Positions 851 through 48,770 are shown, numbered from the stretch's first letter. The stretch is DNA of 64,000 bases from Myxococcota bacterium (GCA_036788295.1 DAIQNR010000005.1:7402-71401); one strand, 5' to 3'. The notes: a model not told the origin generated them from the letters alone. Program-made: numbers and translations.

Positions 851-893
851 CGGGTAGAGCCCAGATTCCAAGGCAGCGCTCGGGTCCACCCGC

Positions 894-1706
894 TCACCCC
901 CCCAGCGCGCGAAGCGGGGTCGAAGGGGCGAAAGCGAGATTCGCCACCTGCTCTGATTGTTCGTGCATGGGTACGTGCCCTGCGCCAGCTATGGCAAACA
1001 CCGTGAGCTTCGGCCACACCTCTCGAAATCGGTCCACCGAGTCGAGCACCGCGGAGAAGGTGCTCTCTCCGTGGATGATCTCAACCGGACCCCGAAATTT
1101 GGCCTGCTGCTCGAGCGGGACCGAGACGCCGTCGCAGAGCGCCCTCAGCAGACGGTAGTTCTCCTCGTGGGAGACCTCGGCGAAGCCTTCGGTCAAGCTC
1201 ACGCCGGCCGGGCGACGACCCCCGAGCGCCCCGTCGGTCAAGGCGCGCCCGAAAGGGTTCGCGAACGTGAGCCGATACAGGGCCGGACCAAGAACCGGGA
1301 GCAGAAAGATGCGAAAGTACCAGGGCACGAACGCGAATGGATCGACGAGAACCAGCCGCTCGAAGCGTTCGGGTTGCCGAGACGACAGGCGCATCGCCGG
1401 GCAGGCCCCGCCGCACGCAGCGATGACCTCGACCCGATCGAGCCCGAGCGCATCGATGGCCTCGGCGAGGCGGTCGGTCAGTCCCTCCGCGGTCCACTCG
1501 GTCGGTCGAGCGCTCCCGCCCACACCGGGCAGATCGAAGGCGTACAAGGTGGCTTCGGCGGGGAGGAAGCGAACGAGCGGGTCGAAGCTCGCGCTCGAGC
1601 CGCTCCAGCCGTGAAGGCCCACGAAGGGCCGCGTTCCCTGGCCATGCACGACGACCCTGCAGCCGGCGGCGCGGCGCTCCACGCCGAGGGTGGGTGAAGC
1701 GTTCAT
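894..1706 (-). CDS. alpha/beta-hydrolase fold protein inside the carotenoid operon
   Basis: 270-aa ORF with an alpha/beta-hydrolase-like fold (HGWSGS.., GGAC nucleophile-elbow-like, C-terminal GAGHVPMHE). Stop overlaps the crtB stop/start region; 44 nt upstream of carH. Confidence 0.65.
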   Translation of the reverse strand: MNASPTLGVERRAAGCRVVVHGQGTRPFVGLHGWSGSSASFDPLVRFLPAEATLYAFDLPGVGGSARPTEWTAEGLTDRLAEAIDALGLDRVEVIAACGGACPAMRLSSRQPERFERLVLVDPFAFVPWYFRIFLLPVLGPALYRLTFANPFGRALTDGALGGRRPAGVSLTEGFAEVSHEENYRLLRALCDGVSVPLEQQAKFRGPVEIIHGESTFSAVLDSVDRFREVWPKLTVFAIAGAGHVPMHEQSEQVANLAFAPSTPLRALGG

Positions 1707-5312: not shown

Positions 5313-5396
5313 GTGTGGGTCCTGGGGGAAATGCCGTGCGCCCGCGGCGGGCCGCGGCGAAGCAAAATCACGCGGCGACTCTCGAAATCGGGCCGA

Positions 5397-5421
5397 TGTC
5401 TGTCAATGATTTGTCTAACTC
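5397..5421 (-). promoter_or_regulatory. Putative CarH-type operator overlapping a sigma70-like -35 (TTGACA) upstream of crtE. On the minus strand it reads gagTTAGACAaatcaTTGACAgaca: two 11-bp-spaced direct repeats carrying the nAnnTnnACAn signature, in a local AT-rich island.
   Basis: Sequence inspection of the crtE upstream gap (5313-5475). The repeat geometry matches the TtCarH/MxCarH operator architecture known from the literature. Confidence 0.4.
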
Positions 5422-5475
5422 GGGGCCGACCATTCCTGGACCGGCGGCGGCAGGCCCCGGTCACCAGGTTTTGGG

Positions 5476-6696
5476 TCAGCGCCACGGCCACAGGGCCGAC
5501 CAGAGGATCGGGCCGCGGGGACCGAGTCCGGCCCCGACGAGGCGCCGCCGAAGATCCCAATCCGCCGCCGCGAAGACGCCGAGCATGGCCGCCCTCACCG
5601 CCGAAGGCGAAGCGGTCCCCGACAGATAGCCAGTCCACAGCGGGTCCGGCAGCGAGAAGAACGCGGTGAAGAAGCGCTGGAGCTGGGCCGTGTCGAGCCC
5701 GAGCAAGACTTCCGAGCCAAACCGGAACAAGTCGTGGGCCACCCGCTCGTCCCTCGACCACACCGCCGCCCACGCCCGCGCCGACCGGGCGTCCCGGTCC
5801 TCGCCGGACTCGAGCCCCTCGGCGACCGCAGCAGCGAGGCGGGGAGCCGTGCGGAGCACGCGCGCGAGCAGGTAGCCGCTCGCCGGGTGTACCTGGCGAG
5901 CCGCTCCGCCAAAACCCACCACCGGCTGCACCGCCGGCGGCGGCGGCCCCCCCATGGGAATGAAGCAACGCTCGACTTCGAGCACCCGCCCCACCGAGAC
6001 CCCGAGACGCCCGAGGCGAGACTGCAGCCGGGCCTCGAGCTGCTCGATCGGTAGCCCTGGACGGGCGACGAGCGACGTCTCCTCGAAGAACACCACCCGT
6101 TCGTCTTCGGGGAGGACATAGAGAAAGCTCGGGACGCGCGCGGCCTCCGTGGAGCGGTCGGGCGGCCGAAAATCCATGAGCACAGCCTCGCCCTCGGGAA
6201 AACGGTGCCCGCGCTCGAGCTCGGCCCGGATCCCGTAGGCAACTTGCCACCCTGGCGCGGGCCCGGGCCGATGGCGGAGCAGCCGGCTCTCATGGCCCGA
6301 AGCGTCGATCACCAGGTCGGCGCCCAGGGTTCCATCGCTCGTGCGCACCCAAAAGCGGTCGCCCTCGGGCTCCACCGCATCCGCCACCCCAACGACGCGC
6401 ACCGCGGAGGAGGCGTCGTCGAGCAGCCGCTCTCGCAGCCGGTCGTTCGCGACTCGTCCGTACGCCCGCGCGAAGGCCCGCTCCGCCGTATCGGAGCCGT
6501 GCACACGAACCCGAGGCCAGGTGCGCTCGAGCACCGACTCGAAGCCGGACACTTCGTCGACCCAAACTCCGTAGCCGTTGCGAAATGGGGCTTCGGGCTC
6601 CGGCGCCACCAGCGTCACCGCGAGACCGCGGCGGCACAGCGCGCCCGCCGCCGCCCACCCCGCCGGACCGGCTCCGATGACCAGCACCTCCGCCAC
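5476..6696 (-). CDS. lycopene cyclase, CrtL/CrtY family (FAD-dependent). Start set at GTG 6696 just before the Rossmann motif VAEVLVIGAGPAGW; the ORF is open to 7032.
   Basis: Motifs VLVIGAGPAGWAAAG, FLYVLP, FGGAARQVHPASGY match lycopene beta-cyclase (CrtL type). Confidence 0.75.
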   Translation of the reverse strand: MAEVLVIGAGPAGWAAAGALCRRGLAVTLVAPEPEAPFRNGYGVWVDEVSGFESVLERTWPRVRVHGSDTAERAFARAYGRVANDRLRERLLDDASSAVRVVGVADAVEPEGDRFWVRTSDGTLGADLVIDASGHESRLLRHRPGPAPGWQVAYGIRAELERGHRFPEGEAVLMDFRPPDRSTEAARVPSFLYVLPEDERVVFFEETSLVARPGLPIEQLEARLQSRLGRLGVSVGRVLEVERCFIPMGGPPPPAVQPVVGFGGAARQVHPASGYLLARVLRTAPRLAAAVAEGLESGEDRDARSARAWAAVWSRDERVAHDLFRFGSEVLLGLDTAQLQRFFTAFFSLPDPLWTGYLSGTASPSAVRAAMLGVFAAADWDLRRRLVGAGLGPRGPILWSALWPWR

Positions 6697-6883: not shown

Positions 6884-8020
6884 ATGAACGAACCGGGCAA
6901 AACGAGCACCATGATGTCGCTCGGCGATCCCTCGCGAGGGGATGTGGACGAAGCGGTGCTCGACGCGCCCGGGGGGTTCGCGTGGTGGTATGTGGACACC
7001 ATCGATGAGCACGGCGACGGCGCGGTGATCATCTGGTCCTGGGGTTTGCCCTTCCTCCCCGGCTATCTGTCCGGGGTCCGCGCCGGACGGGGGGATGCGG
7101 CGCGGGACCGCCCGAGCCTGAACGTGGCCCTGTACCGCGGGGGTCGCCGCCACTTCTACCTGCTTCAGACGTACGCGCCAGGCGAGGCCGAGCTGCTGGG
7201 CGACGGACGGTTCCGTTTCGGTCGCACCCGGATCGAGACTTCCTCTTCAGGGACGGTGCAGATCGACCTCGACTGCGATCTCTTCCGCACCAGCGAAAAA
7301 CTGACCGGACGTTTCGTCGTGGAGGGCCCACGAGCGCGGCTCGCCCCTGGCCTGTCGCCGAGCGACGATCGCAACCATCGCTGGACCCCGGTGCTCGGTC
7401 CGGCTCGGGCGCGGGCCGTGCTCGAGGTGGGGAGCGAGACGGTGCGCATCGACGGCCCCGCCTACCACGACCGAAACGAGGGCACGCAGCCGTTCGACCA
7501 GCTCGGAATCGACCACTGGTCATGGGGACGGCTCGTGACCGCGACCGAGACCTCCATCTGGTACGTCAACCACGCGCTCGACGGGCCCCCGATGGCGTGG
7601 GGCGTGCGCCTCGACGAGTCCGGGATCGTGCACCTCGCCGCCGAGCTCGAGCCCCGGTTCGAGCGACCCCGTAGCGGCCCATTCGGGCTTCGCACCTGGG
7701 ATCGCATACGGCTGCTCGACGCCAGCGGGTCCGAGTGGATCGCCGCCGACACCGGGCCGCGGGTGGACGACGGCCCATTCTATGCCCGAACGTTGAGCTC
7801 GGTCCGGTCCAGCGGGAGGGAGGGTCCCGGCCTCGGGGAGTGGATCGTGCCCCACCGGATCGACCTCTCCGTGCACCGGCCACTGGTGCGGATGGCGGTG
7901 CACAACGCGAGCGGTCCGAACTCGATTTGGCTTCCCCTCTTCAGCGGCCCGAAGGCCGGCCGGCTCGCCCGACTGCTCGGGCTCAAAAGGCGCCGAAACC
8001 TCGGTGAGACCGCCGCATGA
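6884..8020 (+). CDS. crtC: carotenoid 1,2-hydratase (hydroxyneurosporene synthase, CrtC)
   Basis: CrtC-family motifs GGFAWWYVD, PAYHDRNEG, HWSWGR, GPFYARTL. ATG at 6884 inside the longer open frame 6578-8020. Confidence 0.8.
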   Translation: MNEPGKTSTMMSLGDPSRGDVDEAVLDAPGGFAWWYVDTIDEHGDGAVIIWSWGLPFLPGYLSGVRAGRGDAARDRPSLNVALYRGGRRHFYLLQTYAPGEAELLGDGRFRFGRTRIETSSSGTVQIDLDCDLFRTSEKLTGRFVVEGPRARLAPGLSPSDDRNHRWTPVLGPARARAVLEVGSETVRIDGPAYHDRNEGTQPFDQLGIDHWSWGRLVTATETSIWYVNHALDGPPMAWGVRLDESGIVHLAAELEPRFERPRSGPFGLRTWDRIRLLDASGSEWIAADTGPRVDDGPFYARTLSSVRSSGREGPGLGEWIVPHRIDLSVHRPLVRMAVHNASGPNSIWLPLFSGPKAGRLARLLGLKRRRNLGETAA

Positions 8021-9150
8021 GCGCGAATTGGATCGTGGCCGTGCTCCCGCTGACCGTGTTCGCGGTGGCGCTCGTCAACCTCTTCCTCTGGCCACGAGGG
8101 CGACCGGGAACCCAGCTTCCCGGGACGCTTTCCGTGCTCATCCCGGCGAGAGACGAGGCGGGGCGCATCGAGCGCACGGTTCGGGCCGCGCTCGCCAGCA
8201 CCCACCCGGTGGCCGAGGTCCTCGTCTACGACGACGGCTCCAAAGACGCGACGCCCGAAATCCTGGCCGAGATCGCCGCTCAGGACCGGCGCTTGACGGT
8301 GCTCGTGGGCGGCGGTCTCCCGGACGGCTGGATCGGGAAGGCCCACGCTTGCCACCGCTTGGCCGAGGCAGCTTCCGGTGAGTACCTCTGCTTTCTCGAC
8401 GCGGACGTCGTCCTTGCTCCCCGGGGGCTCGAGCACTTGGCGGACGTGTTCGACCGGCTCGACGCCTCCGTGGTGACCGCGGTGCCGAGGCAGGAGGCCG
8501 GTACCTGGTTCGAGCGCCTCGTGCTGCCCCTGCTCCATCTCACCTATGTATCCTGGCTGCCCATGCCTCTCATCTGGCGCTCGAAGGATCCCCGGTTCTT
8601 GGCCGCGAACGGCCAGCTGCTCGCCCTGCGCGCGGACGCCTACCGCCGCTTTGGAGGTTACGAGTCCGTCCGCTCCGAGGTCGTGGACGACATGGCGTTC
8701 TGCCGAGCGGCCAAACGCGCCGGGCTGCGGGTCGTCTTCGCCGACGGCGCGTCGATGGCGACGTGCCGCATGTATTGCTCGGCCCGCGAGGTCTGGGAAG
8801 GTTTCTCGAAGAACCTGTACGAGGGGGTCGGGGCTCGTCCGGACGCCCTGCTGCTCGCCCTGGCGCTCAACGTGGGCGCCTTCCTGCTCCCGTGGGTCCT
8901 CCTTGCCGCAGCGATCTCGGACCCAGCCTGGCTCGCCCCAGCCGCGGTGGGCGTCATCGCCAACGTGAGCCAGCGGGGGCTGCTCGCCTGGCGGCACCGG
9001 CAGCCGTGGTCATCGCTGCTGCTTCATCCCTTGTCCATCTTGGCCCTGGTGGCGATCGCGGTGAACTCGTGGCGCTGGCAGGCTTCGGGCTCCATTTGCT
9101 GGCGAGGAAGGACGTACGCTCGTCGAGCGGAGCGGGGGGTGTCGGGATGA
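8017..9150 (+). CDS. family-2 glycosyltransferase, putative carotenoid glycosyltransferase (CruC/CrtQ-like), membrane-anchored
   Basis: GT2 signature LSVLIPARDEAGRIERTV…VLVYDDGSKDATPEIL plus C-terminal TM helices. ATGA overlap with the crtC stop and with the crtD start. Confidence 0.7.
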   Translation: MSANWIVAVLPLTVFAVALVNLFLWPRGRPGTQLPGTLSVLIPARDEAGRIERTVRAALASTHPVAEVLVYDDGSKDATPEILAEIAAQDRRLTVLVGGGLPDGWIGKAHACHRLAEAASGEYLCFLDADVVLAPRGLEHLADVFDRLDASVVTAVPRQEAGTWFERLVLPLLHLTYVSWLPMPLIWRSKDPRFLAANGQLLALRADAYRRFGGYESVRSEVVDDMAFCRAAKRAGLRVVFADGASMATCRMYCSAREVWEGFSKNLYEGVGARPDALLLALALNVGAFLLPWVLLAAAISDPAWLAPAAVGVIANVSQRGLLAWRHRQPWSSLLLHPLSILALVAIAVNSWRWQASGSICWRGRTYARRAERGVSG

Positions 9151-10637
9151 GCCGAGTCGTGGTCATCGGAGCGGGCGTCGGCGGGCTCTGCGCCGCCATC
9201 GAGCTTGCGTCCCAGGGGGTCGAGGTCCTCGTGCTCGAAGCTCGGGGAGCCCCGGGCGGCAAGGCCGGCGTCGGGAGCTTCGACGGCGTGGAGTTCGACA
9301 CCGGCCCGAGCGTCCTCACGCTGCCCGAGATCTTCGATCAGGTGCTGAAGAGCGCCGGCACCAGGCTCGAAGACGAGCTGACCCTCATCCGGCCGGAGCC
9401 AGCGTTTCGCTATCTGTATCCCGATGGCACTGCGCTCGACGTGCACCATGAGATCGGGGCGACGCTCGATTCGGTGAACGGCACGCTCGGGGCAGAGGCC
9501 CGGCTCGAGCTCGAGCGGTTCATGGTCTACGCCGGCCGCATCTGGTGGGCGAGCGCCGACACCTTCGTGTTCGGCGACGCCCCGACCGTCGGCGCGGTGC
9601 TGAAGTTCGGTTTGCGCGGTCTGGGTCAGCTCTTCGCGATCGATGCCGGTCGCTCGATGGCCCGCGCCATCGACGCGAAGATTCGAAGCCCCCACCTTCG
9701 GGACCTCCTCCTTCGATACGCCACCTACAACGGCTCCGACCCCTATCGAGCACCGGCGACGCTGAACTGCATCGCTCACGTCGAGCTCGCGCTCGGGGGC
9801 TTCGGGATCGAAGGCGGCATCCACCGGCTGGCGACGGCGCTCGCCCGGGTGGCGGAGCGATCCGGGGCCGAGATCCAATACGACGCGCCCGCGAGCGAGA
9901 TCGTGGTCGAGCGTTCCCGGGCGGTGGCGGTCCGGACGCGGGGCGGCCCACCGATCCGGTGCGACGCGGTCGTCGCGAACGCCGACCCGGAGCACGTCTT
10001 TCGCCATCTCCTGCCCGAGGAGGTGGGCGCCGCCCGAAGGAGCCGCGCGACCCCCTCGACGTCGGGCTGGACCGCGGTGATCCGGGCCAGGAGAGACCCG
10101 GCTCGCGCCGCCCACACCGTGCTGTTCCCGGCGACGTACCGAGAGGAGTTCGCCGACTTGTTCGAGCGGGAGCGCCCCCCGGAGGACCCGACCGTGTACC
10201 TCTGCGACCAAGCGGTCTGCCACCGGCGCACAGGGTGGGCGGATGCGGTGCCTCTGTTCGCGATGGCCAACGCCCCGGCCGAACCGGAGGACGGTCGGAC
10301 CCCCGACGAGGTGTGGAATGGGCTCGAGGAGAGGATCAGGGCCCGCCTGGCCGCTGGCGCGCTCGTGGACGCCGGCGATCCGATCGTGTGGAAGCGCACC
10401 CCGACCGGGCTCGCCGAGACCTTCCCCGGCAGCCGTGGCGCCCTCTACGGGGCGGCATCGAACACGCCGCTCGCGGCGTTTCGGCGCCCTCCGAACCGTC
10501 TGAGCAACCCCCGGGGCCTCTACCTCGCGAGCGGGGGCGCGCACCCGGGCGGAGGCTTGCCCCTGTGCGCGTCGAGCGGACGAGCGGCGGCCAGGGCCGC
10601 GCTCGCCGACCTCGGCGTCGAAAACGGAGCAGCATGA
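9147..10637 (+). CDS. crtD: phytoene-desaturase-family carotenoid desaturase, putative CrtD (3,4-desaturase of hydroxylated acyclic ends)
   Basis: MSRVVVIGAGVGGLCAAIELA… Rossmann start and CrtI-family body. Placement after crtC and the GT supports the CrtD call; specificity is inferred. Confidence 0.65.
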   Translation: MSRVVVIGAGVGGLCAAIELASQGVEVLVLEARGAPGGKAGVGSFDGVEFDTGPSVLTLPEIFDQVLKSAGTRLEDELTLIRPEPAFRYLYPDGTALDVHHEIGATLDSVNGTLGAEARLELERFMVYAGRIWWASADTFVFGDAPTVGAVLKFGLRGLGQLFAIDAGRSMARAIDAKIRSPHLRDLLLRYATYNGSDPYRAPATLNCIAHVELALGGFGIEGGIHRLATALARVAERSGAEIQYDAPASEIVVERSRAVAVRTRGGPPIRCDAVVANADPEHVFRHLLPEEVGAARRSRATPSTSGWTAVIRARRDPARAAHTVLFPATYREEFADLFERERPPEDPTVYLCDQAVCHRRTGWADAVPLFAMANAPAEPEDGRTPDEVWNGLEERIRARLAAGALVDAGDPIVWKRTPTGLAETFPGSRGALYGAASNTPLAAFRRPPNRLSNPRGLYLASGGAHPGGGLPLCASSGRAAARAALADLGVENGAA

Positions 10638-11380
10638 ACCCCTCCTTCCTGATCGCGCTCGCCATGAGCCCAGCCCCGGACGCCCCGGAGTGGCCCGATT
10701 TGCAGGGTCACTGGGCCTTCTCTCAGGTCACGACCGCGGTGTCGAAGGCGCCGCTGCTCGGCGAGGTCACGACGCAGACCCGCGCGCTGGGCACCGTCCG
10801 GATCAAGCAGAGCGGGGAGAAGCTCGATCTTCTCGAGACCCTGTGCACGCTCGAGACGAGCGATCCGTCCCCGATGGTGAAGACCCGCTACCCCGACGCG
10901 TTCATCGCCGCCCTGTCCGGCAACCGTCGCTCCGCCCGGTTGAAGACCGGTCCGGACGGCTTTCGCTTCGTGCAGGACAAGACCTGGACCGTCCACGGGG
11001 CGGAGATCCTGAACCAGGGCGACGCCCTGCCCACCGACGCTTCGGACCCCCGGGTGCGCGACGACGACGGGGACGGCGCGCCGGGGCTGACCGTGCAGGT
11101 CAGCGGCATCGTGAGCGGGCAGCTGCGGGTGGTCACCCGGGGCTGGACCGCTCTGGATGCTCGAGTCCACGAAGCCGACCGGGTACAAGGGCGGGTGCAG
11201 TGGGGGACCGAGCAGCGGGTGCTCGGCGTGACCCACTGGCTGCTCGACCACCAGCCCCGGCTCCGGCCCCACCCCGACCAGGACCGCTCCCACTTCGCTC
11301 TGGTGAGGCTCCCGGAAGCCACCACCTGCGCTACCGTGGTCGGCGCGGCCGACCGTCTGTTTGCCGAAGCCCGACCCTAG
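10634..11380 (+). CDS. hypothetical protein, translationally coupled to crtD (ATGA); possible N-terminal signal-like segment (FLIALAMSPAPDAP)
   Basis: In frame with the long ORF 9545-11380; ATG 10634 overlaps the crtD stop. No recognisable family. Confidence 0.45.
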   Translation: MNPSFLIALAMSPAPDAPEWPDLQGHWAFSQVTTAVSKAPLLGEVTTQTRALGTVRIKQSGEKLDLLETLCTLETSDPSPMVKTRYPDAFIAALSGNRRSARLKTGPDGFRFVQDKTWTVHGAEILNQGDALPTDASDPRVRDDDGDGAPGLTVQVSGIVSGQLRVVTRGWTALDARVHEADRVQGRVQWGTEQRVLGVTHWLLDHQPRLRPHPDQDRSHFALVRLPEATTCATVVGAADRLFAEARP

Positions 11381-11483
11381 GGCTGCCACCGCATTTCTCC
11401 CTTTACTTGGCGGGTCCGTTGGTTGAAGCAGGCCCGCGCGAGGGGCGATTCGCCCTCCGACGTCCCCGCACCGAGGTCAAGCC

Positions 11484-13583
11484 GTGATCAGCGACATCAG
11501 CATCGTCAGGAACATTGGGATCTCCGCCCACATCGACAGCGGGAAGACCACCCTGACCGAGCGGATCCTCTTCTACACCAACCGGGTCCACGCCATTCAC
11601 GACGTGAAGGGCAAAGATGGCGTCGGCGCCAAGATGGACTCCATGGAGCTCGAGCGGGAGCGCGGGATCACCATCGCGAGCGCCGCCACCTACTGCGAGT
11701 GGAAGAAGCACCACATCAACATCATCGACACCCCCGGGCACGTGGACTTCACGATCGAGGTCGAGCGCTCCCTGCGGGTGCTCGACGGGGCGATCCTCGT
11801 CCTGTGCTCGGTGGCCGGTGTCCAGTCCCAGTCCTACACGGTGGACCGCCAGATGAAGCGGTACAACGTGCCCCGGCTCGCCTTCGTGAACAAGTGCGAC
11901 CGCGTGGGCGCCAACCCGGTCCGCGTCCGAAACCAGCTCCGAGAGAAGCTGGGACACAACGCGGTGATGATGCAAATCCCCATCGGTCTCGAGGACAAGC
12001 ACGTCGGGGTGGTGGACCTCATCGAGATGAAGGCCCTCTACAACGATGGCCCGAACGGGGAGAAGATCATCGAAAAGGAGATCCCTGCCGAGCTCCTGGA
12101 CGAGGCCGCGGCGTACCGCGAGGAGATGCTCGACTCGGTCTCGATGTTCTCCGAAGAGCTCATGGAGGCCATGCTCGAGGAGAACGTCACCCCCGAGCTC
12201 ATCCGGAAGGCGGTTCGTGACGGGACGATCTCCCTTCAGCTCACCCCGGTCTTCATGGGTTCCGCGTTCAAGAACAAGTCCGTGCAGCCGCTGCTCGACG
12301 CGGTCACGCTGTACCTGCCGAACCCGGCCGAAGTGAGAAACGAGGCGATCGACCTGACGTCGGGCGCGGACGAGTCCCGGGTGGTCTTGAAGACCGATCC
12401 CGACGCTCCGTTCGCCGGACTCGCCTTCAAGCTCGAGGACGGCCGGTACGGTCAGCTCACCTACGTGCGCATCTACCAGGGGAAGGTGGCTCGCGATGAC
12501 TTCATCGTGAACACCCGCACCGGCAAGAAGACGAAGGTGGCCCGCCTGGTCCGCATGCACTCGGACGACATGGAAGACATCCAGGCTGCGTCGGCGGGCG
12601 ACATCGTGGCCGTCTTCGGGCTCGATTGCGCATCGGGCGATACCTTCACCGACGGGACGCTCAAGATCGCGATGACCTCGATCTTCGTCCCCGACCCGGT
12701 GATCTCGCTGTCGATCAAGCCGAAGGACTCGAGGTCCGAGCAGAACCTCAGCAAGGCGCTGAACCGATTCACGAAGGAAGACCCCACGTTCCGGGCCGGA
12801 GTGGACCCGGAGTCGGGGGAGACGGTCATCCAGGGCATGGGGGAGCTTCAGCTCGACGTGTACATCGAGCGGATGAAGCGGGAGTACAGCTGCATCGTGG
12901 AGACCTCGGCGCCCCAGGTGGCGTACCGAGAGACCTTCACCCAGCGGGCGGACTTCAACTACACCCACAAGAAGCAGACCGGCGGCTCCGGACAGTACGG
13001 AAAGATCGCGGGCTTCCTCGAGCCCATCCCCGAGGAAGAGGCCACGGAGTTCGAGTTCGTCGATGACACGGTCGGCGGCGTCATCCCGAAGCAGTTCATC
13101 CCGTCGGTGGAGAAGGGCTTCAAGTCCATGCTCGCCAAGGGCCGACTCATCGGGTTCCCCGTGGTCAACGTGCGCGTGGTGATCAACGATGGCGGCTCCC
13201 ACGCGGTCGACTCGTCGGACAACGCGTTTCAGGAGGCCGCCCGGGGAGCGTGGCGAGCGACCTTCGACAAGGCGCGCCCGCGGATCCTCGAGCCGGTGAT
13301 GAAAGTCGTCGTCGAGGGACCCTCCGAGCACGCGGGCAACGTGCTGCAGACGATCATGCAGCGGCGCGGCATCATCAACGGCTCGCAGGAGGAAGACGGC
13401 ATGACCCGCACCGAGGCGGAGGTGCCGCTCGCGGAGATGTTCGGCTACGCGACCGTCCTGCGGTCGGCTACCCAGGGCAAGGCCGAGTTCTCGATGGAGT
13501 TCTCGCGGTACATGCTCACCCCCTCGACCGTCGAGGAGGAGCTGGTGGCGAAGGCACGGGAAAAAGAAGCCAGCAAGAAGTGA
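11484..13583 (+). CDS. elongation factor G paralog (EF-G2 class)
   Basis: Full five-domain EF-G ([18 protein letters not shown]…[22 protein letters not shown]…NKCDR). GTG start. Distinct from the canonical fusA in the str operon at 46642-48738. Confidence 0.85.
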
Positions 13584-13654
13584 CACCGCGACCGGTGGCC
13601 TTCCGGACGTAGGACCGGAGGTCATCGGATTCCACGAGAGGCGAGGTCAGGCCC

Positions 13655-14962
13655 ATGTACCGCAAAGAAGTCAACGAACGGAGCCCCCTGCGGATCTTCG
13701 AGCGCTCCATCCATGGGGGCCTCGGCGCCGGAAACCTCGGGGTCGTCATGGCCCGGGCCGGGGTGGGGAAGACCGCTTTCCTCGTTCAGGTCGGCCTCGA
13801 CGACCTCCTTCGGGAAAAGCAGGTCCTTCATGTGGCGGTAGGGCAGACCGTCGAGCACGTCCAGGCTTGGTACTATGCGCTCTTCGACGACCTCGCCCAG
13901 CTCGTGGGGCTAGAAAACCGCGCCGCCATTCGGGCGGAGGTTGGTCGTCGGTCGGTGATCCAGGCCTATCCGGGCGAGACCCACGTCGACCCGGACCAGC
14001 TCGAGAAGGCCCTCGACCTGTACGGTCAGCACGCCTCGTTTCGGCCGGCGGCGATCTTGCTCGACGGCTGGGACTGGAGCGGGCCGGCCGAGACCAGAGC
14101 GGCGGAGCTGACCAGGCTGAAGGAGATCGCCGGGCGAGCTGGCGCGGAGCTGTGGGTGGCCGCCCAGACCAAGCGCATGGACAGCCCCGAGCATCCGGTG
14201 CAGGTGCCGCCCCCCTGCTCCGACTTCGCTTCACTCATCGACGTCGCCGTGTTCCTCGAGCCGCACGCCGGGGCGCACGTCTCGGTCCGCATTCTGAAGG
14301 ACCACGACAACCCGAACGTGCCCGAGATCCACCTCGCGCTCGACCCCGACACCATGCGGTTGATGGTCGAGGAAGAAGAGTTCGACACGCGGACCCCGGT
14401 GGTTCTTCCACCGTCGCAGTACACGGTGCTGTCGGGCGGCTGCAAAGGCGCAGAAGCCGAGTTCGGGGCCTGTGCGGAGCGGTGGGGCCTTCAGGAGGTC
14501 AACTACTCCTTCGCCGGCCGACCGGTGGTCCGGAGCCGGGGGCTGGTGGAGCTGACCGAGACCGAGCTCAAGCAAGGGGGCGTGAACCCGAGCTACATCG
14601 AAGCCCAGCTCCACCGGTCGTTCGCGAAAACGCCCCAGTTCCAGCGCATGCTTCAGACCATCTGGCACCAGGTGGCGACCGCCGGCCAGGTCTTCGTGGT
14701 GGGGCTCATCCTGCCCGACGGGACGGTCAACGGGGGCACCGGCTGGGCGGCCGAGCTTGGCCGTCACTTCAAGAAGGAGACCCACGTCTACGACCAGGAT
14801 CAGCGGAGCTGGTTCACCTGGCGGGACGGGGCCTGGGTCGACGAAGATCGGCCCAAGATCACCCGGACCCGCTTCACCGGCACGGGGACCCGGTTTCTGT
14901 CCGAAGAGGGGCGGCAGGCCATTCACGACCTGTTCTCCGACTCCTTTGGACCGAGGCACTGA
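13655..14962 (+). CDS. RecA/KaiC/DnaB-like P-loop ATPase fused to a C-terminal DprA/Smf-like (SLOG) Rossmann domain; uncharacterised
   Basis: N-terminus: HGGLGAGNLGVVMARAGVGKTAFLVQVGLDDLL (RecA-superfamily Walker A context). C-terminus: YTVLSGGCKGAEAEFGACAERWGLQEV…GQVFVVGLILPDGTVNGGTGWAAELGRHF resembling the DprA Rossmann domain (VVSGLARGIDAAAH…RSGSLITARLALELGR). Confidence 0.55.
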   Translation: MYRKEVNERSPLRIFERSIHGGLGAGNLGVVMARAGVGKTAFLVQVGLDDLLREKQVLHVAVGQTVEHVQAWYYALFDDLAQLVGLENRAAIRAEVGRRSVIQAYPGETHVDPDQLEKALDLYGQHASFRPAAILLDGWDWSGPAETRAAELTRLKEIAGRAGAELWVAAQTKRMDSPEHPVQVPPPCSDFASLIDVAVFLEPHAGAHVSVRILKDHDNPNVPEIHLALDPDTMRLMVEEEEFDTRTPVVLPPSQYTVLSGGCKGAEAEFGACAERWGLQEVNYSFAGRPVVRSRGLVELTETELKQGGVNPSYIEAQLHRSFAKTPQFQRMLQTIWHQVATAGQVFVVGLILPDGTVNGGTGWAAELGRHFKKETHVYDQDQRSWFTWRDGAWVDEDRPKITRTRFTGTGTRFLSEEGRQAIHDLFSDSFGPRH

Positions 14963-15087
14963 GGACCAGGGACAAAAGCACCGCCCCCCTGGCGTCGTCG
15001 CCGCTTCGCTCCCGTCCGTCCCAGACGACCGCCCGCCGTTCCGTCGTTGACTCCACGTCCGCCGGCGCGGACGCTGCCGATGCCGCA

Positions 15088-15945
15088 ATGAGTCGAAGCT
15101 ACCAGGGCCCAGCGAGCGTGGGCGGGGCCTACGATACTTGGACCGCCGACGGTGTGCTCGAACGGTACTGGGGCGAGCACATCCATCACGGCTTCTACCC
15201 CGAGGGCCGGATCAACGGGGTCGATTTCCGGGCGGCCAAGCGCGCGCTCGTCGAGCGACTGCTGTCCTGGGCCGACCCCGGCCCGGTGCAGTCGGTGCTC
15301 GACGTCGGCTGCGGGATCGGGGGTAGCTCCCGGCTCCTGCATGAGCGGCTCGACGCCGAGGTCGTCGGGGTGACCTTGAGTGCGGCGCAGGTCGGCCGGG
15401 CCCGGCAGCTGACCGACGCCGCCGCGCCGATTCGCTTCGAGCAAGCGGACGCGCTCCACCTGCCCTTCCCCGACGATCGTTTCGACCTCGTTTGGTCGTG
15501 CGAGTCGGGGGAGCACATGCCGGACAAGCGCACCTTCTTCGCCGAGCTCGTGCGGGTCCTCAAGCCGGGCGGCACCCTGATCCTGGCCACTTGGTGCGTC
15601 CGGCCTGGAGAGCTGTCCCATCGAGAGCGGGCCCGTCTCGACGCAATCTACCGAGACTGGACGCTGCCGTTCTTCATACCGGTCGAGGAGTACGCCCAGA
15701 TGGCGCTGCTCGATGGCCGGCTTCGGGCGGTGCGGACGGACGATTGGAGCAGGCAGACCAGCCCGACCTGGCGCCACCAGCTCGTGCTCGGGGCCCGGGA
15801 CGTGTTCTGGCTGTTGAGGCAGGGCCCAGGGGTCATAGGGCGCAGCCTTCGCGATGCCCGCACCGCGCTGGCGATGATCCGCGGCTTCGCGGAGGGCACG
15901 GTCCGGTACGGGCTGCTGCGGGGCACGAAGGAGCCTCCGCGGTGA
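15088..15945 (+). CDS. gamma-tocopherol methyltransferase-family SAM methyltransferase (MPBQ/MSBQ-MT or gamma-TMT; VTE3/VTE4, Sll0418/Slr0089-like)
   Basis: WGEHIHHGFY, VLDVGCGIGGSSR, GVTLSAAQ, DLVWSCESGEHMPDK, LATWC. Closely parallels plant gamma-TMT (WGDHMHHGFY…VVDVGCGIGGSSR…DLVWSMESGEHMPDK). Confidence 0.8.
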   Translation: MSRSYQGPASVGGAYDTWTADGVLERYWGEHIHHGFYPEGRINGVDFRAAKRALVERLLSWADPGPVQSVLDVGCGIGGSSRLLHERLDAEVVGVTLSAAQVGRARQLTDAAAPIRFEQADALHLPFPDDRFDLVWSCESGEHMPDKRTFFAELVRVLKPGGTLILATWCVRPGELSHRERARLDAIYRDWTLPFFIPVEEYAQMALLDGRLRAVRTDDWSRQTSPTWRHQLVLGARDVFWLLRQGPGVIGRSLRDARTALAMIRGFAEGTVRYGLLRGTKEPPR

Positions 15946-16919
15946 AGCGCGCCCTGCTCGGACGACTGCACCCGGAGGGGTTTCACGGCCGGGGCGCCGG
16001 GTCGCCGTTTTTCGAAGGGTGGTACCTCAAGCTCGCGACCGCCGACGAAACGAGAGCGGTCGCGCTGATCCCAGGGATCTTTCGCGGCCGCCAACCAGCG
16101 TCCCACCACGCCTTCGTGCAGGTCGTGGATGAAGGCGTGCGGTACCATCGCTTCTCGGCCGGTCAGCTCGACGGGGCCGAAGACCGCTTCGACGTCCGCA
16201 TCGGTCCGAATCGCTTTCACGAACACGGGCTCTCGGTCGATCTCGACCGCTGCCGCGGGGACCTGCGGTTCGGTCCGATGACCCCTTGGCCGGTGTCCAT
16301 CCCTTCGCCCGGGGCGATGGGTTGGTTCGCTTGGGTCCCGTTCATGCAATGTTACCACGCGGTCCCGAGCTTTGGTCACGAGCTTTACGGCTACCTCGAG
16401 CTCGATGGACAAAGCATCGACTTCACCGGGGGCCGCGGCTACCTCGAGAAGGATTGGGGCCGGAGTTTTCCGAAGACGTGGGTATGGATGCAGGGTCAGC
16501 ACTTCAACGAAGACTTCTGCGTCGCAGTGTCCCTCGCCGACGTCCCTTGGCTCGGCCGGTCGTTTCCCGGTCTGCTCGCCGCCATGCATTTTTCGTCGCC
16601 CCCCCCCGAGCTCGATCCGTTTCTGTTTTTGACGACCTACGGCGGCGCTCGGGTCAGGGGCCTGGCGCGGACTCCCGACGGCATCGATCTTCGGGTCGGC
16701 GGCGGCGGCTTCGAGCTGGAGCTCAACGCTCGAGGCGGCGCCCCGGTTTCCATTCACATCCCATCGGAGGACTCGATGGATCAGGTCGTCGAGGAGCGCC
16801 TCGGCGCGACGCTCTCGGTGCGCTTGTCGAGACGAGGGCGGACCGTTCTCGAGACGCGAGGCCAACTCGCCGCCTACGAAGCCCACGGCGACATCGACCG
16901 GCTCGGGGGAAAGTCATGA
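15942..16919 (+). CDS. tocopherol cyclase (VTE1/Slr1737 family)
   Basis: N-terminal SPFFEGWYLKL (plant VTE1: KFFEGWYFRV) and core YLEKDWGRSFPKTWVWMQGQHF (VTE1: [22 protein letters not shown]). GTG start overlaps the MT1 stop (GTGA). Confidence 0.85.
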   Translation: MKRALLGRLHPEGFHGRGAGSPFFEGWYLKLATADETRAVALIPGIFRGRQPASHHAFVQVVDEGVRYHRFSAGQLDGAEDRFDVRIGPNRFHEHGLSVDLDRCRGDLRFGPMTPWPVSIPSPGAMGWFAWVPFMQCYHAVPSFGHELYGYLELDGQSIDFTGGRGYLEKDWGRSFPKTWVWMQGQHFNEDFCVAVSLADVPWLGRSFPGLLAAMHFSSPPPELDPFLFLTTYGGARVRGLARTPDGIDLRVGGGGFELELNARGGAPVSIHIPSEDSMDQVVEERLGATLSVRLSRRGRTVLETRGQLAAYEAHGDIDRLGGKS

Positions 16920-17767
16920 CGAGGGAGGATCTCGGGGAGCGCATCCGGCAGCTGTACGACCGCACGACGGGCGGATGGGTCGATGTGTGGGGCGAGCACC
17001 TGCACCACGGTCACTACGGCTCGGACGGGTCGGCGAAAGTGGACCACCAGCAGGCGCAGGTGGACATGGTCGACCGCCTGCTCGACTGGGCCGGGCCGGT
17101 CGAAGGACCGACGAAGCTCGTGCTCGACGCCGGCTGCGGGGTGGGAGGCAGCGCCCGGCACCTCGCGACCCGGCTCGGGGCCGAGGTCGAGGGGCTCACC
17201 CTGTCCCCGGTGCAGGCCGGCATCGCCCGCCGTCTGTCCGCCGGCCGGCCCGACGTCCGGTTCACAGTGGCCGACGCGACCCGGGCGCCCTTCGAGACGG
17301 GGAGCTTCGACCTCGTTTGGGCGCTCGAGAGCGCCGAGCACATGCCCGACAAAGGCGCGTTTCTTCGCGAGTGCAGCCGGGTTCTGCGGCCGGGCGGGCG
17401 CCTCGTCCTCGCGACTTGGTGCCACCGCCCGGAGCCCCCTCCACTCCATCGCCGCGACCGGCTCCAGCTGGACACGATCAGCTGGTCCTACGGCCGCTCG
17501 CTGACCTGGGTGTCCGAGTCCACCTATTCGACCGCGCTCGCCGAGGGTCCGTGGACGCAGGCCCGCACCGAGGACTGGTCGGCCGCCGTCGCCCCGTTCT
17601 GGGCGGCGGTGCTCCGATCGGTGGTGACGAAGAGAGGCCTTCTCGCCGTGGCCCGCGGAGGGCGAAGGATGGTCGCCGGCGCGTACGGCGGTTTGTGGAT
17701 GAGGGGGGCGCTCGCCACCGGGCTCGTGCGCTACGTCGTCGCCACCGCAGTCCGGGGGGATGCATGA
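16916..17767 (+). CDS. second gamma-tocopherol methyltransferase-family methyltransferase
   Basis: WGEHLHHGHY, LVLDAGCGVGGSARHL, GLTLSPVQAG, DLVWALESAEHMPDK, LATWCHR, DWSAAVAPFWAAV (plant gamma-TMT: DWSENVAPFWPAV). ATGA overlap with the cyclase stop. Confidence 0.85.
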   Translation: MTREDLGERIRQLYDRTTGGWVDVWGEHLHHGHYGSDGSAKVDHQQAQVDMVDRLLDWAGPVEGPTKLVLDAGCGVGGSARHLATRLGAEVEGLTLSPVQAGIARRLSAGRPDVRFTVADATRAPFETGSFDLVWALESAEHMPDKGAFLRECSRVLRPGGRLVLATWCHRPEPPPLHRRDRLQLDTISWSYGRSLTWVSESTYSTALAEGPWTQARTEDWSAAVAPFWAAVLRSVVTKRGLLAVARGGRRMVAGAYGGLWMRGALATGLVRYVVATAVRGDA

Positions 17768-18660
17768 TCCGCACCCTCTGGGACTTTTCTCGCCCCCACA
17801 CCATCATCGGCTCGACCCTCGCCGTCGTCGTCTTCTATCTCATCGCGGCCAGGGACGCGGGGCGACACGACCTCTTCCTCTTGCTCGTCAGCTATGGGGC
17901 CGCGCTCGCGGTCAACCTGTACATCGTCGGGCTCAACCAGCTCACCGACGTCGCCATCGACCGGGTGAACAAACCCCATCTCCCCCTGCCCTCCGGCCGG
18001 CTGTCGGCCCACGACGCCGCGCGCATCGTCGCCGTCGCCGCCGTCCTCGGGCTGGGGCTCGCCGCTGCCGGGGGCCCTTGGCTCTTCTTTACCATCGGGA
18101 CCGTGTTCGTCGTGGGCTCCTGCTACTCGCTCCCTCCGCTGCGCCTCAAACGAAAACCGGGATGGGCAGCGCTGTCGATCGTCCTGTCCCGCGGCGTCAT
18201 CGGCAACGTCGGGCTGTGGCTGACGTTCACCGTGGGCCTGTCCGGGGTCGCCCGGCTGCCGGCCCACGTCCTCGCCTTCGTCGCGTTCATGGTGGGCTTC
18301 ATGACCGTCATCGCCTTGCTCAAGGACGTGCCCGACATCGAAGGGGACCGCATCCACGAGATCCGAACCTTCAGCGTGCGCTTTGGCCCAAAGCGCGTGC
18401 TCGCCAGCTCGGTGGGGATCCTCGGCGTGGCGTACGCGGGAATGGCCAGCCTCGGGGCGTTCGGGGTCGAGGGGCTCGACCCGCCGGTGACGGCGCTCAC
18501 CCACCTCGCGCTGCTCGCGGTCCTGCTTCGGTTCGCGCGGCAGGCACAGCCAGAGTCGAAAGCGTCGATGACCCGCTTCTATCGACAAGTGTGGACGCTC
18601 TATTACCTCGAGTTCGGCGCCTATCTTTTCGCGTGCCTGGGGACCGGCCGCTGGATCTGA
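17764..18660 (+). CDS. homogentisate prenyltransferase (UbiA superfamily, HPT/VTE2-like)
   Basis: WDFSRPHTIIGS, NQLTDVAIDRVNKPHLPLPSG, KDVPDIEGDR, YRQVWTLYYLEF, matching Arabidopsis VTE2 (WRFLRPHTIRGT; NQIYDIGIDKVNKPYLP; KDLPDVEGDR; YRFIWNLFYAEY). ATGA overlap with the MT2 stop. Confidence 0.85.
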   Translation: MIRTLWDFSRPHTIIGSTLAVVVFYLIAARDAGRHDLFLLLVSYGAALAVNLYIVGLNQLTDVAIDRVNKPHLPLPSGRLSAHDAARIVAVAAVLGLGLAAAGGPWLFFTIGTVFVVGSCYSLPPLRLKRKPGWAALSIVLSRGVIGNVGLWLTFTVGLSGVARLPAHVLAFVAFMVGFMTVIALLKDVPDIEGDRIHEIRTFSVRFGPKRVLASSVGILGVAYAGMASLGAFGVEGLDPPVTALTHLALLAVLLRFARQAQPESKASMTRFYRQVWTLYYLEFGAYLFACLGTGRWI

Positions 18661-48738: not shown

Positions 48739-48770
48739 CCTTCTTAGCTACGAACCCGATGGTTCTCCGC

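What the first reader, a model, noticed from the sequence alone, without database searches (positions are those of the whole stretch)
6884..18660. About 11.8 kb co-directional array joining carotenoid tailoring genes, EF-G2, an ATPase fusion and the tocochromanol operon
crtC, a GT2, crtD, a hypothetical protein, EF-G2, a RecA-like ATPase and the MT-cyclase-MT-HPT genes are all on the plus strand. Gaps are at most 125 nt, and many junctions are 4-nt stop/start overlaps. This suggests one or a few transcripts making a lipid-antioxidant (carotenoid plus chromanol) supercluster. A translation GTPase paralog and an uncharacterised ATPase sit, unexpectedly, in its middle.
Basis: seen in the sequence. 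Interest (0 to 1): 0.6.

Follow-up and report, generated by a model that had tools for sequence, protein, structure and literature searches.

The report
Three unrelated gene modules placed side-by-side
The 11.8 kb run of same-strand genes is real, but it is three separate units that a rearrangement in this myxobacterial lineage put next to each other: a carotenoid-tailoring operon, a widely conserved pair of the main elongation factor G with an uncharacterised ATPase, and a rare four-gene vitamin-E-type operon.

Summary
Ten plus-strand genes occupy 6884-18660, with six 4-nt start/stop overlaps and three gaps of 103, 71 and 125 nt.

The "lipid-antioxidant supercluster with EF-G2 in the middle" reading is not supported. 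The three gaps split the array into three modules.

1. crtC-GT2-crtD-hyp is the plus-strand arm of a divergent carotenoid cluster that has a CarH-like regulator.
2. EF-G plus the ATPase. This EF-G is not EF-G2. It is the spdEFG1/mitochondrial-EFG1 type and has the codon usage of a highly expressed gene. In 54 of 54 loci from several phyla, this EF-G type lies immediately upstream of the ATPase's KaiC/RecA-like N-domain, while the other flanking genes differ. The C-terminal half of the ATPase is a SLOG (DprA/LOG/MoCo-carrier-like) domain.
3. MT-cyclase-MT-HPT is a complete tocochromanol core set. It recurs as the same cassette in three related Myxococcota. There it follows a glutaredoxin gene, not EF-G/ATPase, and it keeps the downstream neighbours seen in the window.

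Conserved promoter-like boxes lie upstream of EF-G and upstream of MT1. Linkage of the vitamin-E genes to the other two blocks is therefore lineage-specific. The two leads worth following are the EF-G1-ATPase pair and a vitamin-E-type operon in a non-phototroph.

The parts
2..6687 (-). Divergent arm of the carotenoid cluster: lycopene cyclase (5476-6687), GGPP synthase (4230-5303), CrtI (2695-4233), CrtB (1703-2698), alpha/beta hydrolase (894-1682) and a CarH-like MerR regulator (2-871). It lies outside the finding but defines module 1.
   Evidence: NCBIfam and Pfam hits; gene calls of the public record.
6884..8020 (+). CrtC-type carotenoid 1,2-hydratase; first gene of the plus-strand carotenoid tailoring operon.
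   Evidence: NF045922 50.6 bits, below cut-off; PF27123 CrtC in precomputed Pfam; 61% and 51% identical homologues in the same position in L005 and L024.
8017..9150 (+). GT2 glycosyltransferase (CruG/HpnB-like), likely a carotenoid glycosyltransferase; 4-nt overlap with crtC.
   Evidence: PF00535 89.8 bits; NF045692 CruG 109.7 bits, below cut-off.
9147..10637 (+). CrtD-type 1-hydroxycarotenoid 3,4-desaturase.
   Evidence: NF045637 379 bits (below the equivalog cut-off of 580); TIGR02734 crtI family 275 bits, above cut-off 238.
10634..11380 (+). 248-aa protein with no family hit; last gene of the carotenoid tailoring operon (4-nt overlap with crtD).
   Evidence: No Pfam, NCBIfam or PADLOC hit; 49% identical homologue at the same position in L005, not detected in L024.
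11391..11429 (+). Conserved promoter-like element upstream of EF-G: GCATTTCTCCCTTTACT (-35-like TTTACT at 11402-11407), a 16-nt spacer, then TGAAGC.
   Evidence: Block invariant in the window, L005 and L024. A TCTTTACA-N16-TAGCTT/TAGGTT box occupies the same place in L017, L018 and L011, which have unrelated upstream genes. Prediction only.
11484..13583 (+). Elongation factor G of the spdEFG1 / mitochondrial EF-G1 type; the likely main translocase.
   Evidence: TIGR00484 955.6 bits. Switch-I '[13 protein letters not shown]' carries the KDG insertion that defines spdEFG1. Best PDB match is mitochondrial EF-G1 at 812 bits, against 657 for Thermus EF-G. CAI is 0.793, against 0.58-0.72 for neighbours.
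13655..14374 (+). ATPase N-domain: single KaiC/RecA/DnaB-like P-loop domain (Walker A GVGKT, Walker-B-like ILLDGWDW).
   Evidence: Foldseek against PDB: KaiC, E about 1e-13. PDB profile hit to a DnaB-like helicase, 1e-7. AAA_16 and AAA_25 hits are below threshold. Invariant G36, G38 and K39.
14387..14962 (+). ATPase C-domain: SLOG-superfamily Rossmann-like domain with conserved motifs SGGxxGAE, GGTGW, DQ and GTGTR.
15047..15075 (+). Promoter-like element upstream of the tocochromanol operon: TTGACT-N17-GACGCT, 12 nt before the ATG at 15088, implying a near-leaderless transcript.
   Evidence: The same TTGACT box, with the same 17-nt spacing and a similar distance to the start codon, is present in L012 and L014, where the upstream gene is a glutaredoxin. 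Prediction only.
15088..15945 (+). Methyltransferase 1 (gamma-TMT / cyanobacterial MPBQ-MT family paralogue).
   Evidence: Methyltransf_11 90 bits; 44% identical to MT2; 53-61% identical homologues at the same cassette position in L012, L014 and L015.
15942..16919 (+). Tocopherol-cyclase-family protein.
   Evidence: PF14249 58.6 bits, above cut-off 26.6; 50-55% identical homologues in the same cassette in relatives.
16916..17767 (+). Methyltransferase 2 (tocopherol O-methyltransferase-like).
   Evidence: The nearest homologues outside the Myxococcota clade are cyanobacterial proteins at 44-50% identity, many named 'tocopherol O-methyltransferase' by JGI.
17764..18660 (+). Homogentisate prenyl(phytyl)transferase, UbiA family.
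   Evidence: NF009525 homogentisate phytyltransferase 312.1 bits, above cut-off 226; PF01040 117.7 bits.

Best explanation
The array is a juxtaposition of three independently evolving, and most likely independently transcribed, units.

(1) Genes 6884-11380 are the plus-strand arm of a divergent, probably CarH/light-regulated carotenoid cluster. It hydrates, desaturates and glycosylates a (mono)cyclic carotenoid.

(2) Genes 11484-14962 are a housekeeping bicistron. It encodes the spdEFG1/mtEFG1-type elongation factor G, which is the cell's likely main translocase. The second, divergent EF-G in the str operon probably does ribosome recycling. The bicistron also encodes a KaiC/RecA-like ATPase fused to a SLOG nucleotide-binding domain. 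That ATPase is an obligate genomic partner of this EF-G type across phyla. By inference only, it acts on or with EF-G1 or the ribosome in a nucleotide-dependent way.

(3) Genes 15088-18660 are a self-contained tocochromanol operon. The prenyltransferase joins homogentisate to a C20 prenyl diphosphate. One methyltransferase methylates the benzoquinol, the cyclase closes the chromanol ring, and the second methyltransferase finishes the head group.

The ancestral home of module 3 is next to the ribosomal-protein superoperon. In this lineage a rearrangement, with its breakpoint in the 125-nt gap at 14963-15087, replaced the usual upstream neighbours of module 3 with modules 1 and 2.

Shown: the gene families, the paralogue type, the synteny patterns and the conserved upstream boxes. 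Inferred: the transcript boundaries, the enzyme order and product, and the role of the ATPase.
For: Gene model and junctions.

Module 1:
- Carotenoid families lie on both strands, with a CarH-like regulator.

Module 2:
- The two EF-G paralogues are only 36% identical.
- The EF-G in the finding has the KDG insertion and best matches mitochondrial EF-G1.
- Its CAI is 0.793, close to EF-Tu (0.83). The ATPase is 0.68 and the str-operon EF-G is 0.685.
- EF-G lies immediately upstream of the ATPase N-domain in L005-L011 and in all 54 genome loci that carry the N-domain. Gaps are mostly 4-25 nt and the other flanks are unrelated. Taxa include three complete Sorangium genomes and Acidobacteriota, Eisenbacteria, Thermoanaerobaculia and Desulfobia MAGs.
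- A conserved -35-like box lies upstream of EF-G whatever the upstream gene is.

Module 3:
- HPT scores above its equivalog cut-off, the cyclase above the Pfam cut-off, and the two methyltransferases are paralogues related to cyanobacterial tocopherol methyltransferases.
- The same MT-cyclase-MT-UbiA cassette, with overlapping genes, is found in L012, L014 and L015. There it has a glutaredoxin upstream and the LPP20/LpoB/trypsin/L17-rpoA neighbours downstream, as in the window.
- L015 and L024 are contigs of one MAG. L012 and L005 come from one sample. In both cases the cassette and the EF-G/ATPase block are on separate contigs.
- A conserved TTGACT-N17 box lies at a similar distance before MT1 in the window, L012 and L014.
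Against: - No transcript data exist, so read-through from crtC to HPT cannot be excluded.
- No terminator-like sites above the chance level were found (4 found, 5.4 expected), and none lies in the three gaps.
- The strict sigma-70 scan found no promoters. The proposed boxes have weak -10 elements and rest on conservation among few sequences.
- The carotenoid-EF-G-ATPase adjacency is conserved in two relatives (L005, L024). This could reflect shared ancestry or some weak functional tie.
- Assigning L005/L012 and L015/L024 to single organisms rests on sample identity and on metagenomic binning.
- The chemical product is not shown. Neither HPPD nor a geranylgeranyl reductase is in the window.
Confidence: 0.75

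Rival explanations
1. One reading: one functional lipid-antioxidant supercluster, transcribed as one or two long mRNAs and co-regulated (for example by light through the CarH-like repressor), in which EF-G and the ATPase have been recruited to the pathway.
For: All ten genes are co-directional with gaps of at most 125 nt. No intrinsic terminator lies in the gaps. A CarH-like regulator lies nearby. Carotenoids and tocochromanols are both membrane antioxidants built from GGPP (established biochemistry). Elsewhere, a tocopherol-cyclase-family gene sits inside a carotenoid cluster (L098).
Against: The cassette is unlinked from the carotenoid genes and from EF-G/ATPase in every relative examined. 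EF-G/ATPase keeps its pairing in about 50 genomes that have no carotenoid or tocochromanol genes within 10 kb. Separate conserved promoter-like boxes exist. No sequence motif is shared between the intergenic regions. EF-G's codon adaptation differs sharply from that of its neighbours.
Confidence: 0.08
2. The EF-G/ATPase pair is functionally tied to the carotenoid cluster in this family-level clade, for example through shared read-through expression. The tocochromanol operon is the only accidental neighbour.
For: The order carotenoid cluster, then EF-G, then ATPase is kept in the window, L005 (EF-G 88% identical) and L024 (84%).
Against: The three genomes are close relatives, so shared ancestry is enough to explain the pattern. 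The pair has other neighbours in all other lineages. The EF-G promoter-like box is conserved beyond this clade. The gap before EF-G is 103-400 nt in these three genomes.
Confidence: 0.1
3. The MT-cyclase-MT-UbiA cassette does not make tocopherol itself. It makes another prenylated aromatic, such as a tocotrienol, a plastochromanol-like chromanol, or a methylated prenylquinol that is never cyclised.
For: The organism is a non-phototroph and no phytol source is evident. No geranylgeranyl reductase or HPPD is in the window. A GGPP synthase lies 10 kb away. Most bacterial Tocopherol_cycl-family genes have no HPT or MT neighbour (0 of 80 with HPT), and one sits in a carotenoid cluster, so the family's bacterial chemistry is open. 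The cyclase matches only part of the Pfam model (residues 82-196).
Against: The UbiA protein passes the curated homogentisate phytyltransferase equivalog cut-off. Both methyltransferases fall in the family that JGI names tocopherol O-methyltransferase. The four functions are exactly the core tocochromanol set (established pathway: VTE2, VTE3, VTE1, VTE4).
Confidence: 0.3

Closest known systems
spdEFG1 / mitochondrial EF-G1 (Margus et al. 2011, PMC3150367; Atkinson 2015, PMC4342817)
   Same: It has the three-residue KDG insertion in switch I. Its best solved relative is mitochondrial EF-G1. It co-occurs with a second, divergent EF-G in the genome. It lies outside the str operon.
   Different: These papers, as far as I read them, report no conserved partner gene. 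Here, and in 54 of 54 related loci, a KaiC-like ATPase gene follows directly. Those papers restrict spdEFG1 mainly to Spirochaetes, Planctomycetes and delta-proteobacteria, whereas the paired form also appears in Acidobacteriota and Eisenbacteria MAGs.
Tocopherol core pathway of cyanobacteria and plastids (HPT/VTE2, MPBQ-MT/VTE3, cyclase/VTE1, gamma-TMT/VTE4)
   Same: The same four enzyme families are present. HPT passes its equivalog cut-off. The methyltransferases are 44-50% identical to cyanobacterial proteins named tocopherol O-methyltransferase.
   Different: The host is a non-photosynthetic Myxococcota MAG. The four genes form one translationally coupled operon; in cyanobacteria they are dispersed (my own knowledge). 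The product is unverified. The cassette was found in only a handful of related MAGs or contigs.
Myxobacterial light-inducible carotenoid cluster (Myxococcus xanthus carB operon with carA/carH; my own knowledge)
   Same: crtE, crtI, crtB, crtD, crtC, a lycopene cyclase and a CarH-like MerR regulator are clustered. A glycosyltransferase fits the glycosylated monocyclic carotenoids of myxobacteria.
   Different: The cluster is arranged as two divergent operons. It contains an unassigned 248-aa gene. No operator was identified.
KaiC / RecA-superfamily ATPases and SLOG proteins (DprA, LOG, MoCo-carrier protein, YpsA; PDB 3imk)
   Different: It has a single RecA-like domain, where KaiC has two. The Pfam KaiC model is not met (E=0.1). 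This fusion and its strict EF-G linkage are not described in any paper found. There is no match to defence-system models (PADLOC).

Membership tests
Single operon / functional supercluster | Co-directional genes with short or overlapping junctions | tested here: met
   Six 4-nt overlaps and gaps of 103, 71 and 125 nt.
Single operon / functional supercluster | Gene neighbourhood conserved in relatives | tested here: not met
   The tocochromanol cassette has different upstream genes in L012, L014 and L015. The EF-G/ATPase pair has no carotenoid or tocochromanol genes nearby in about 50 loci.
Single operon / functional supercluster | No internal promoters; one transcript | tested here: inconclusive
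   Conserved -35-like boxes lie before EF-G and before MT1. The consensus scan found no sigma-70 sites, and terminator-like sites did not exceed chance. There are no RNA data.
EF-G2 (EFG II) subfamily | Scores above the curated EF-G2 models | tested here: not met
   NF009377 392 bits against cut-off 890; NF058620 407 against 1000. The protein passes TIGR00484 EF-G with 955 bits.
spdEFG1 / mtEFG1 | Three-residue 'KDG' insertion in switch I | tested here: met
   The sequence reads [15 protein letters not shown]. The criterion comes from PMC3150367. The insertion is absent from the str-operon paralogue.
spdEFG1 / mtEFG1 | Closer to mitochondrial EF-G1 than to EFG I | tested here: met
   812 bits to mitochondrial EF-G1 chains, against 657 bits to Thermus EF-G. 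No phylogenetic tree was built.
spdEFG1 / mtEFG1 | Co-occurs with a second EF-G (spdEFG2, or ambiguous EFG I) | tested here: met
   The gene at 46642-48738 lies within rpsL-rpsG-fusA-tuf, is 36% identical, and scores higher to mtEFG2 (474 bits) than to mtEFG1 (402 bits).
spdEFG1 / mtEFG1 | Translocation-only activity | not testable with these tools
   This needs biochemistry. The domain-IV loop motif SHAVDSS is present here and absent from the paralogue.
Tocochromanol core pathway | Homogentisate prenyltransferase | tested here: met
   NF009525 312.1 bits, above cut-off 226.
Tocochromanol core pathway | Tocopherol cyclase | tested here: met
   PF14249 58.6 bits, above cut-off 26.6, but only residues 82-196 align. 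Family membership alone does not prove the activity, because most bacterial members lack pathway neighbours.
Tocochromanol core pathway | Two ring methyltransferases (MPBQ-MT and gamma-TMT) | tested here: inconclusive
   The two are paralogues (44% identical) in the family whose cyanobacterial members JGI names tocopherol O-methyltransferase. No curated model is available, and which enzyme does which step is unknown.
Tocochromanol core pathway | Tocopherol or tocotrienol actually produced | not testable with these tools
   This needs LC-MS or heterologous expression.
KaiC family | Pfam KaiC (PF06745) match and a duplicated RecA-like domain | tested here: not met
   PF06745 E=0.1, 12.4 bits against cut-off 26.6. 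There is a single P-loop domain. Only fold-level similarity to KaiC is seen.
SLOG superfamily | Rossmann-like SLOG fold with glycine-rich nucleotide-binding loops | tested here: met
Anti-phage defence system | Match to PADLOC models | tested here: not met
   No hits for the ATPase or its neighbours.

The most novel reading that the evidence does not exclude
The KaiC/RecA-like ATPase, fused or adjacent to a SLOG nucleotide-binding domain, is a dedicated and so far undescribed partner of spdEFG1-type elongation factor G. The two genes would form an obligate module conserved across Myxococcota, Acidobacteriota, Eisenbacteria and Desulfobacterota. In it, the ATPase would sense a nucleotide-derived signal and load, recycle or gate the translocase on the ribosome.
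Probability: 0.35. Interest if true: 0.75.

Novelty: new variant of a known kind. Interest (0 to 1): 0.45.

Why it matters
The supercluster itself does not hold up, so tidy co-directional gene arrays should not be read as pathways without synteny evidence.

Two of its pieces matter.

1. Tocopherols are generally regarded as products of oxygenic phototrophs. A compact, translationally coupled HPT/cyclase/2xMT operon in non-photosynthetic Myxococcota would be a portable four-gene vitamin-E module. It would also be a test case for what chromanols do outside photosynthesis.
2. The subfunctionalised EF-G1/EF-G2 system, the bacterial counterpart of the mitochondrial one, has no known accessory factors. 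A gene that follows EF-G1 in every genome examined is an obvious candidate and is directly testable in Sorangium.

Tried and rejected
- The consensus promoter/terminator scan of 6400-19000 found 0 promoters and 4 terminator-like sites (5.4 expected), none in the gaps. It was uninformative for this 70% GC genome.
- Folding of the four intergenic regions showed no structure better than shuffles (z from -1.5 to +1.4). The hairpin at 13592-13628 between EF-G and the ATPase is not conserved in L005 or L024.
- A search for shared operators between the carotenoid divergent region, the EF-G upstream region and the MT1 upstream region (shared k-mers, a Thermus-type CarH repeat pattern, palindromes) found only chance 8-mers.
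- Pfam and NCBIfam gave nothing for the 248-aa protein or the ATPase C-domain. PADLOC gave nothing.
- The full-length ATPase model against PDB returned only KaiC hits driven by the N-domain, so the C-domain was modelled separately. The afdb50 fold library was unavailable.
- The contexts of stand-alone SLOG homologues in Desulfovibrio, Nitrospina and Thermodesulfatator are heterogeneous (riboflavin, purine and LarC genes, and RF3 on the opposite strand in L074). The C-domain alone is therefore not EF-G-linked.
- Literature searches for a Myxococcota tocopherol cluster or an EF-G/SLOG link found nothing relevant. One 2016 paper notes unexplained cyclase-like proteins in non-photosynthetic bacteria.
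- I considered that EF-G/ATPase was inserted into a once-contiguous carotenoid-tocochromanol cluster. I rejected this because the cassette is not next to carotenoid genes in any relative.

Full report
**Observation**

The window is about 70% GC, so I used third-codon-position GC to pick real reading frames and then examined candidate starts. Ten plus-strand genes lie at 6884-8020, 8017-9150, 9147-10637, 10634-11380, 11484-13583, 13655-14962, 15088-15945, 15942-16919, 16916-17767 and 17764-18660. Six junctions are ATGA/GTGA overlaps, and there are three gaps of 103, 71 and 125 nt. The window is part of NCBI assembly GCA_964504175.1, contig CAZDDJ010000006.1. The public gene calls there agree, except for a later start for the first methyltransferase.

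**What the genes are**

Pfam and NCBIfam plus precomputed Pfam give these assignments:
- CrtC (PF27123; weak NF045922 hit).
- A GT2 glycosyltransferase that resembles CruG/HpnB.
- CrtD (NF045637, 379 bits).
- A 248-aa protein with no family.
- EF-G.
- A weak P-loop ATPase.
- Two class-I SAM methyltransferases.
- Tocopherol_cycl (58.6 bits against a cut-off of 26.6, partial coverage).
- Homogentisate phytyltransferase (NF009525, 312 bits against a cut-off of 226).

On the minus strand directly upstream lie a lycopene cyclase, a GGPP synthase, CrtI, CrtB, a hydrolase and a CarH-like MerR regulator. The first four genes of the finding are therefore one arm of a divergent carotenoid cluster. The CarH-like and myxosortase-associated hits, together with the taxonomy of close homologues, place the organism in Myxococcota.

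**The EF-G is not EF-G2**

The gene passes the EF-G equivalog (955 bits, cut-off 659) and fails both EF-G2 models. The window holds a second EF-G at 46642-48738, inside rpsL-rpsG-fusA-tuf. The two are only 36% identical.

Margus et al. (PMC3150367) define spdEFG1 by a three-residue KDG insertion in switch I. The finding's EF-G reads [15 protein letters not shown], and the str-operon copy lacks the insertion.

Against solved structures, the finding's EF-G scores 812 bits to mitochondrial EF-G1 and 657 bits to Thermus EF-G. The str-operon copy scores best to Thermus EF-G (643 bits) and higher to mitochondrial EF-G2/RRF2 (474 bits) than to EF-G1 (402 bits). That matches the EFG I/spdEFG2 ambiguity Margus et al. 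describe for delta-proteobacteria.

With the ribosomal-protein genes of the window as reference, the CAI of the finding's EF-G is 0.793. EF-Tu is 0.83, the neighbours are 0.58-0.72, and the str-operon EF-G is 0.685.

By analogy with Borrelia and mitochondria, as cited, this is most likely the cell's main translocase. It is a housekeeping gene, not a pathway accessory.

**Synteny**

The ATPase is much better conserved than the pathway enzymes. It is 57-77% identical across more than 100 protein clusters, whereas the cyclase reaches at most 55%.

Contexts of ATPase homologues:
- The closest relative, L005, keeps the carotenoid genes, EF-G and the ATPase in the same order. It has small minus-strand genes instead of the tocochromanol operon.
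- More distant genomes (L008-L011) keep only EF-G and then the ATPase, with entirely different flanks.
- A scan of one genome per GTDB species returned 80 loci. tblastn of all window proteins against them shows an spdEFG1-type EF-G directly upstream, on the same strand, in every one of the 54 loci that contain the ATPase N-domain. These EF-Gs are 60-88% identical where intact and carry the switch-I insertion or a close variant. Gaps are mostly 4-25 nt. Two of the 54 (L027, L055) are frameshifted long-read MAG sequences in which EF-G is still detectable in pieces (as low as 42% identity).
- The set includes three complete Sorangium genomes and MAGs labelled Acidobacteriota, Eisenbacteria, Thermoanaerobaculia, Syntrophaceae and Desulfobia.
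- Only L024, like L005 among the earlier look-ups, has carotenoid genes nearby. None of the 80 loci has tocochromanol genes.

Contexts of cyclase homologues:
- The same MT-cyclase-MT-UbiA cassette, with overlapping genes, occurs in L012, L014 and L015.
- There it is preceded by a glutaredoxin gene and other unrelated genes.
- It is followed by the same minus-strand neighbours as in the window: an E1-E2-like protein, an M10 peptidase, LPP20, LpoB and a trypsin-like protease, then L17-rpoA.
- L015 and L024 are contigs of one MAG (GCA_019634385.1). L012 and L005 come from one sample (SRR17165160).

The simplest history is that the cassette's ancestral position is beside the ribosomal superoperon. 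In this lineage a rearrangement then placed the carotenoid/EF-G/ATPase block upstream of it, with the breakpoint in the 125-nt gap.

**Transcription signals**

The generic scans were uninformative, and the gap sequences do not fold better than shuffles. Comparative inspection was more useful.

- Upstream of EF-G, the block GCATTTCTCCCTTTAC is invariant in the window, L005 and L024. A TCTTTACA-N16-TAGCTT box lies before EF-G in L017, L018 and L011, whose upstream genes differ.
- Upstream of MT1, a TTGACT-N17-(G/C)A(G/C)(G/C)(C/T)T box lies 12-14 nt before the ATG in the window, L012 and L014, again with different upstream genes.

These are predictions. They fit separate promoters for modules 2 and 3, and a near-leaderless tocochromanol mRNA. 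No shared operator links the carotenoid promoter region with the other two.

**The ATPase**

An AlphaFold model built from 34 homologues (pLDDT 84) shows two domains joined by a low-confidence linker at residues 240-246.

- The N-domain matches KaiC by fold (E about 1e-13) and a DnaB-like helicase by profile (1e-7). It has an invariant GxGKT motif. It fails the Pfam KaiC model and has only one RecA-like domain.
- Both halves exist as separate genes elsewhere. N-only genes, in Eisenbacteria and Acidobacteriota, still follow EF-G. In Desulfobia (L090) the order is SLOG gene, EF-G, N-domain gene. Stand-alone SLOG genes in other phyla have varied neighbours.
- There is no defence-system match.

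The role of the ATPase is unknown. The strict pairing suggests it works with EF-G1 or the ribosome, possibly in response to a nucleotide ligand. That is inference.

**The tocochromanol operon**

- The four families are exactly the core set of the established pathway.
- MT1 and MT2 are 44% identical paralogues.
- Beyond a small Myxococcota clade (55-66% identical), MT2's nearest homologues are cyanobacterial proteins at 44-50% identity, many named tocopherol O-methyltransferase by JGI.
- The cassette is rare. Among 80 metagenome loci with cyclase-family genes, one short contig (L103) has an MT beside the cyclase, and none has an HPT.
- Other family members are solitary (L097) or sit in a carotenoid-glycoside-type cluster (L098). 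The family name alone therefore does not establish chromanol cyclisation.
- A 2016 paper noted unexplained cyclase-like proteins in non-photosynthetic bacteria. I found no paper describing this operon.
- The prenyl donor (phytyl or geranylgeranyl) and the product remain open.

**Verdict**

The 11.8 kb 'supercluster' is an accident of genome rearrangement, and the 'EF-G2' label is wrong. It is best filed as known kinds of genes in a new arrangement. It yields two real leads: an EF-G1/KaiC-like-SLOG ATPase gene pair that is conserved across phyla and, as far as I could find, undescribed; and a compact vitamin-E-type operon in non-phototrophic Myxococcota.

Noticed in passing
window 46642-48738 (-), within rpsL-rpsG-fusA-tuf at about 45340-49676: The EF-G that sits in the str operon is the divergent paralogue. 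It is 36% identical to the other copy, barely passes the EF-G model (709 bits against cut-off 659), and has an ordinary CAI (0.685). It lacks the domain-IV SHAVDSS loop that the other copy has. So the 'canonical' locus holds what is probably the recycling-type factor, and the translocase lies elsewhere.
   Followed up: partly
L098:5143-11033 (JGI 3300012009, Ga0153773_1000059): A Tocopherol_cycl-family gene (42% identical to the window's cyclase) lies inside a carotenoid-type cluster: hydrolase, cyclase-like, Caroten_synth/CruF-like, G3P acyltransferase-like, GT2 and a CrtD-like desaturase, next to mevalonate-pathway genes. No HPT or methyltransferases are nearby. Many bacterial 'tocopherol cyclases' may act on carotenoids or other isoprenoids.
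   Followed up: partly
L090:392-3802 (Desulfobia sp. MAG): This is a split version of the module: a stand-alone SLOG-domain gene, then spdEFG1-type EF-G, then a stand-alone KaiC-like N-domain gene, all on one strand. Both halves are thus linked to EF-G without being fused.
   Followed up: partly
window 57274-63899: A flagellin gene (57274-58665, -) lies beside NeuB, UDP-GlcNAc 2-epimerase and Maf/MptE-like genes, which are typical of flagellin glycosylation. Flagellar genes are unusual for Myxococcota.
   Followed up: no
window 2-871 (-) and 6688-6883: A CarH-like MerR regulator (NF052513, 86 bits, below cut-off) ends the minus-strand carotenoid operon. No CarH-type operator could be recognised in the 196-nt divergent promoter region.
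   Followed up: partly
L017, L018 and L011, upstream of EF-G; window 15047-15087: The promoter-like -10 boxes end only about 8-14 nt before the start codons of EF-G (in L017, L018 and L011) and of MT1 (in the window, L012 and L014). This suggests leaderless or near-leaderless mRNAs.
   Followed up: no
window 18709-20724 (-): A 671-aa protein with only a weak E1-E2 ATPase actuator-domain hit lies convergent to the HPT gene. It is conserved (48% identical) at the same position after the cassette in L012/L013, but not in L014 or L015. It is not a normal P-type ATPase.
   Followed up: no
window 53922-55687 (+): A CMD-family (AhpD-like) gene overlaps a radical-SAM/DUF3641 gene, next to an FHA-sigma54 activator (55731-57272). 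The function was not examined.
   Followed up: no
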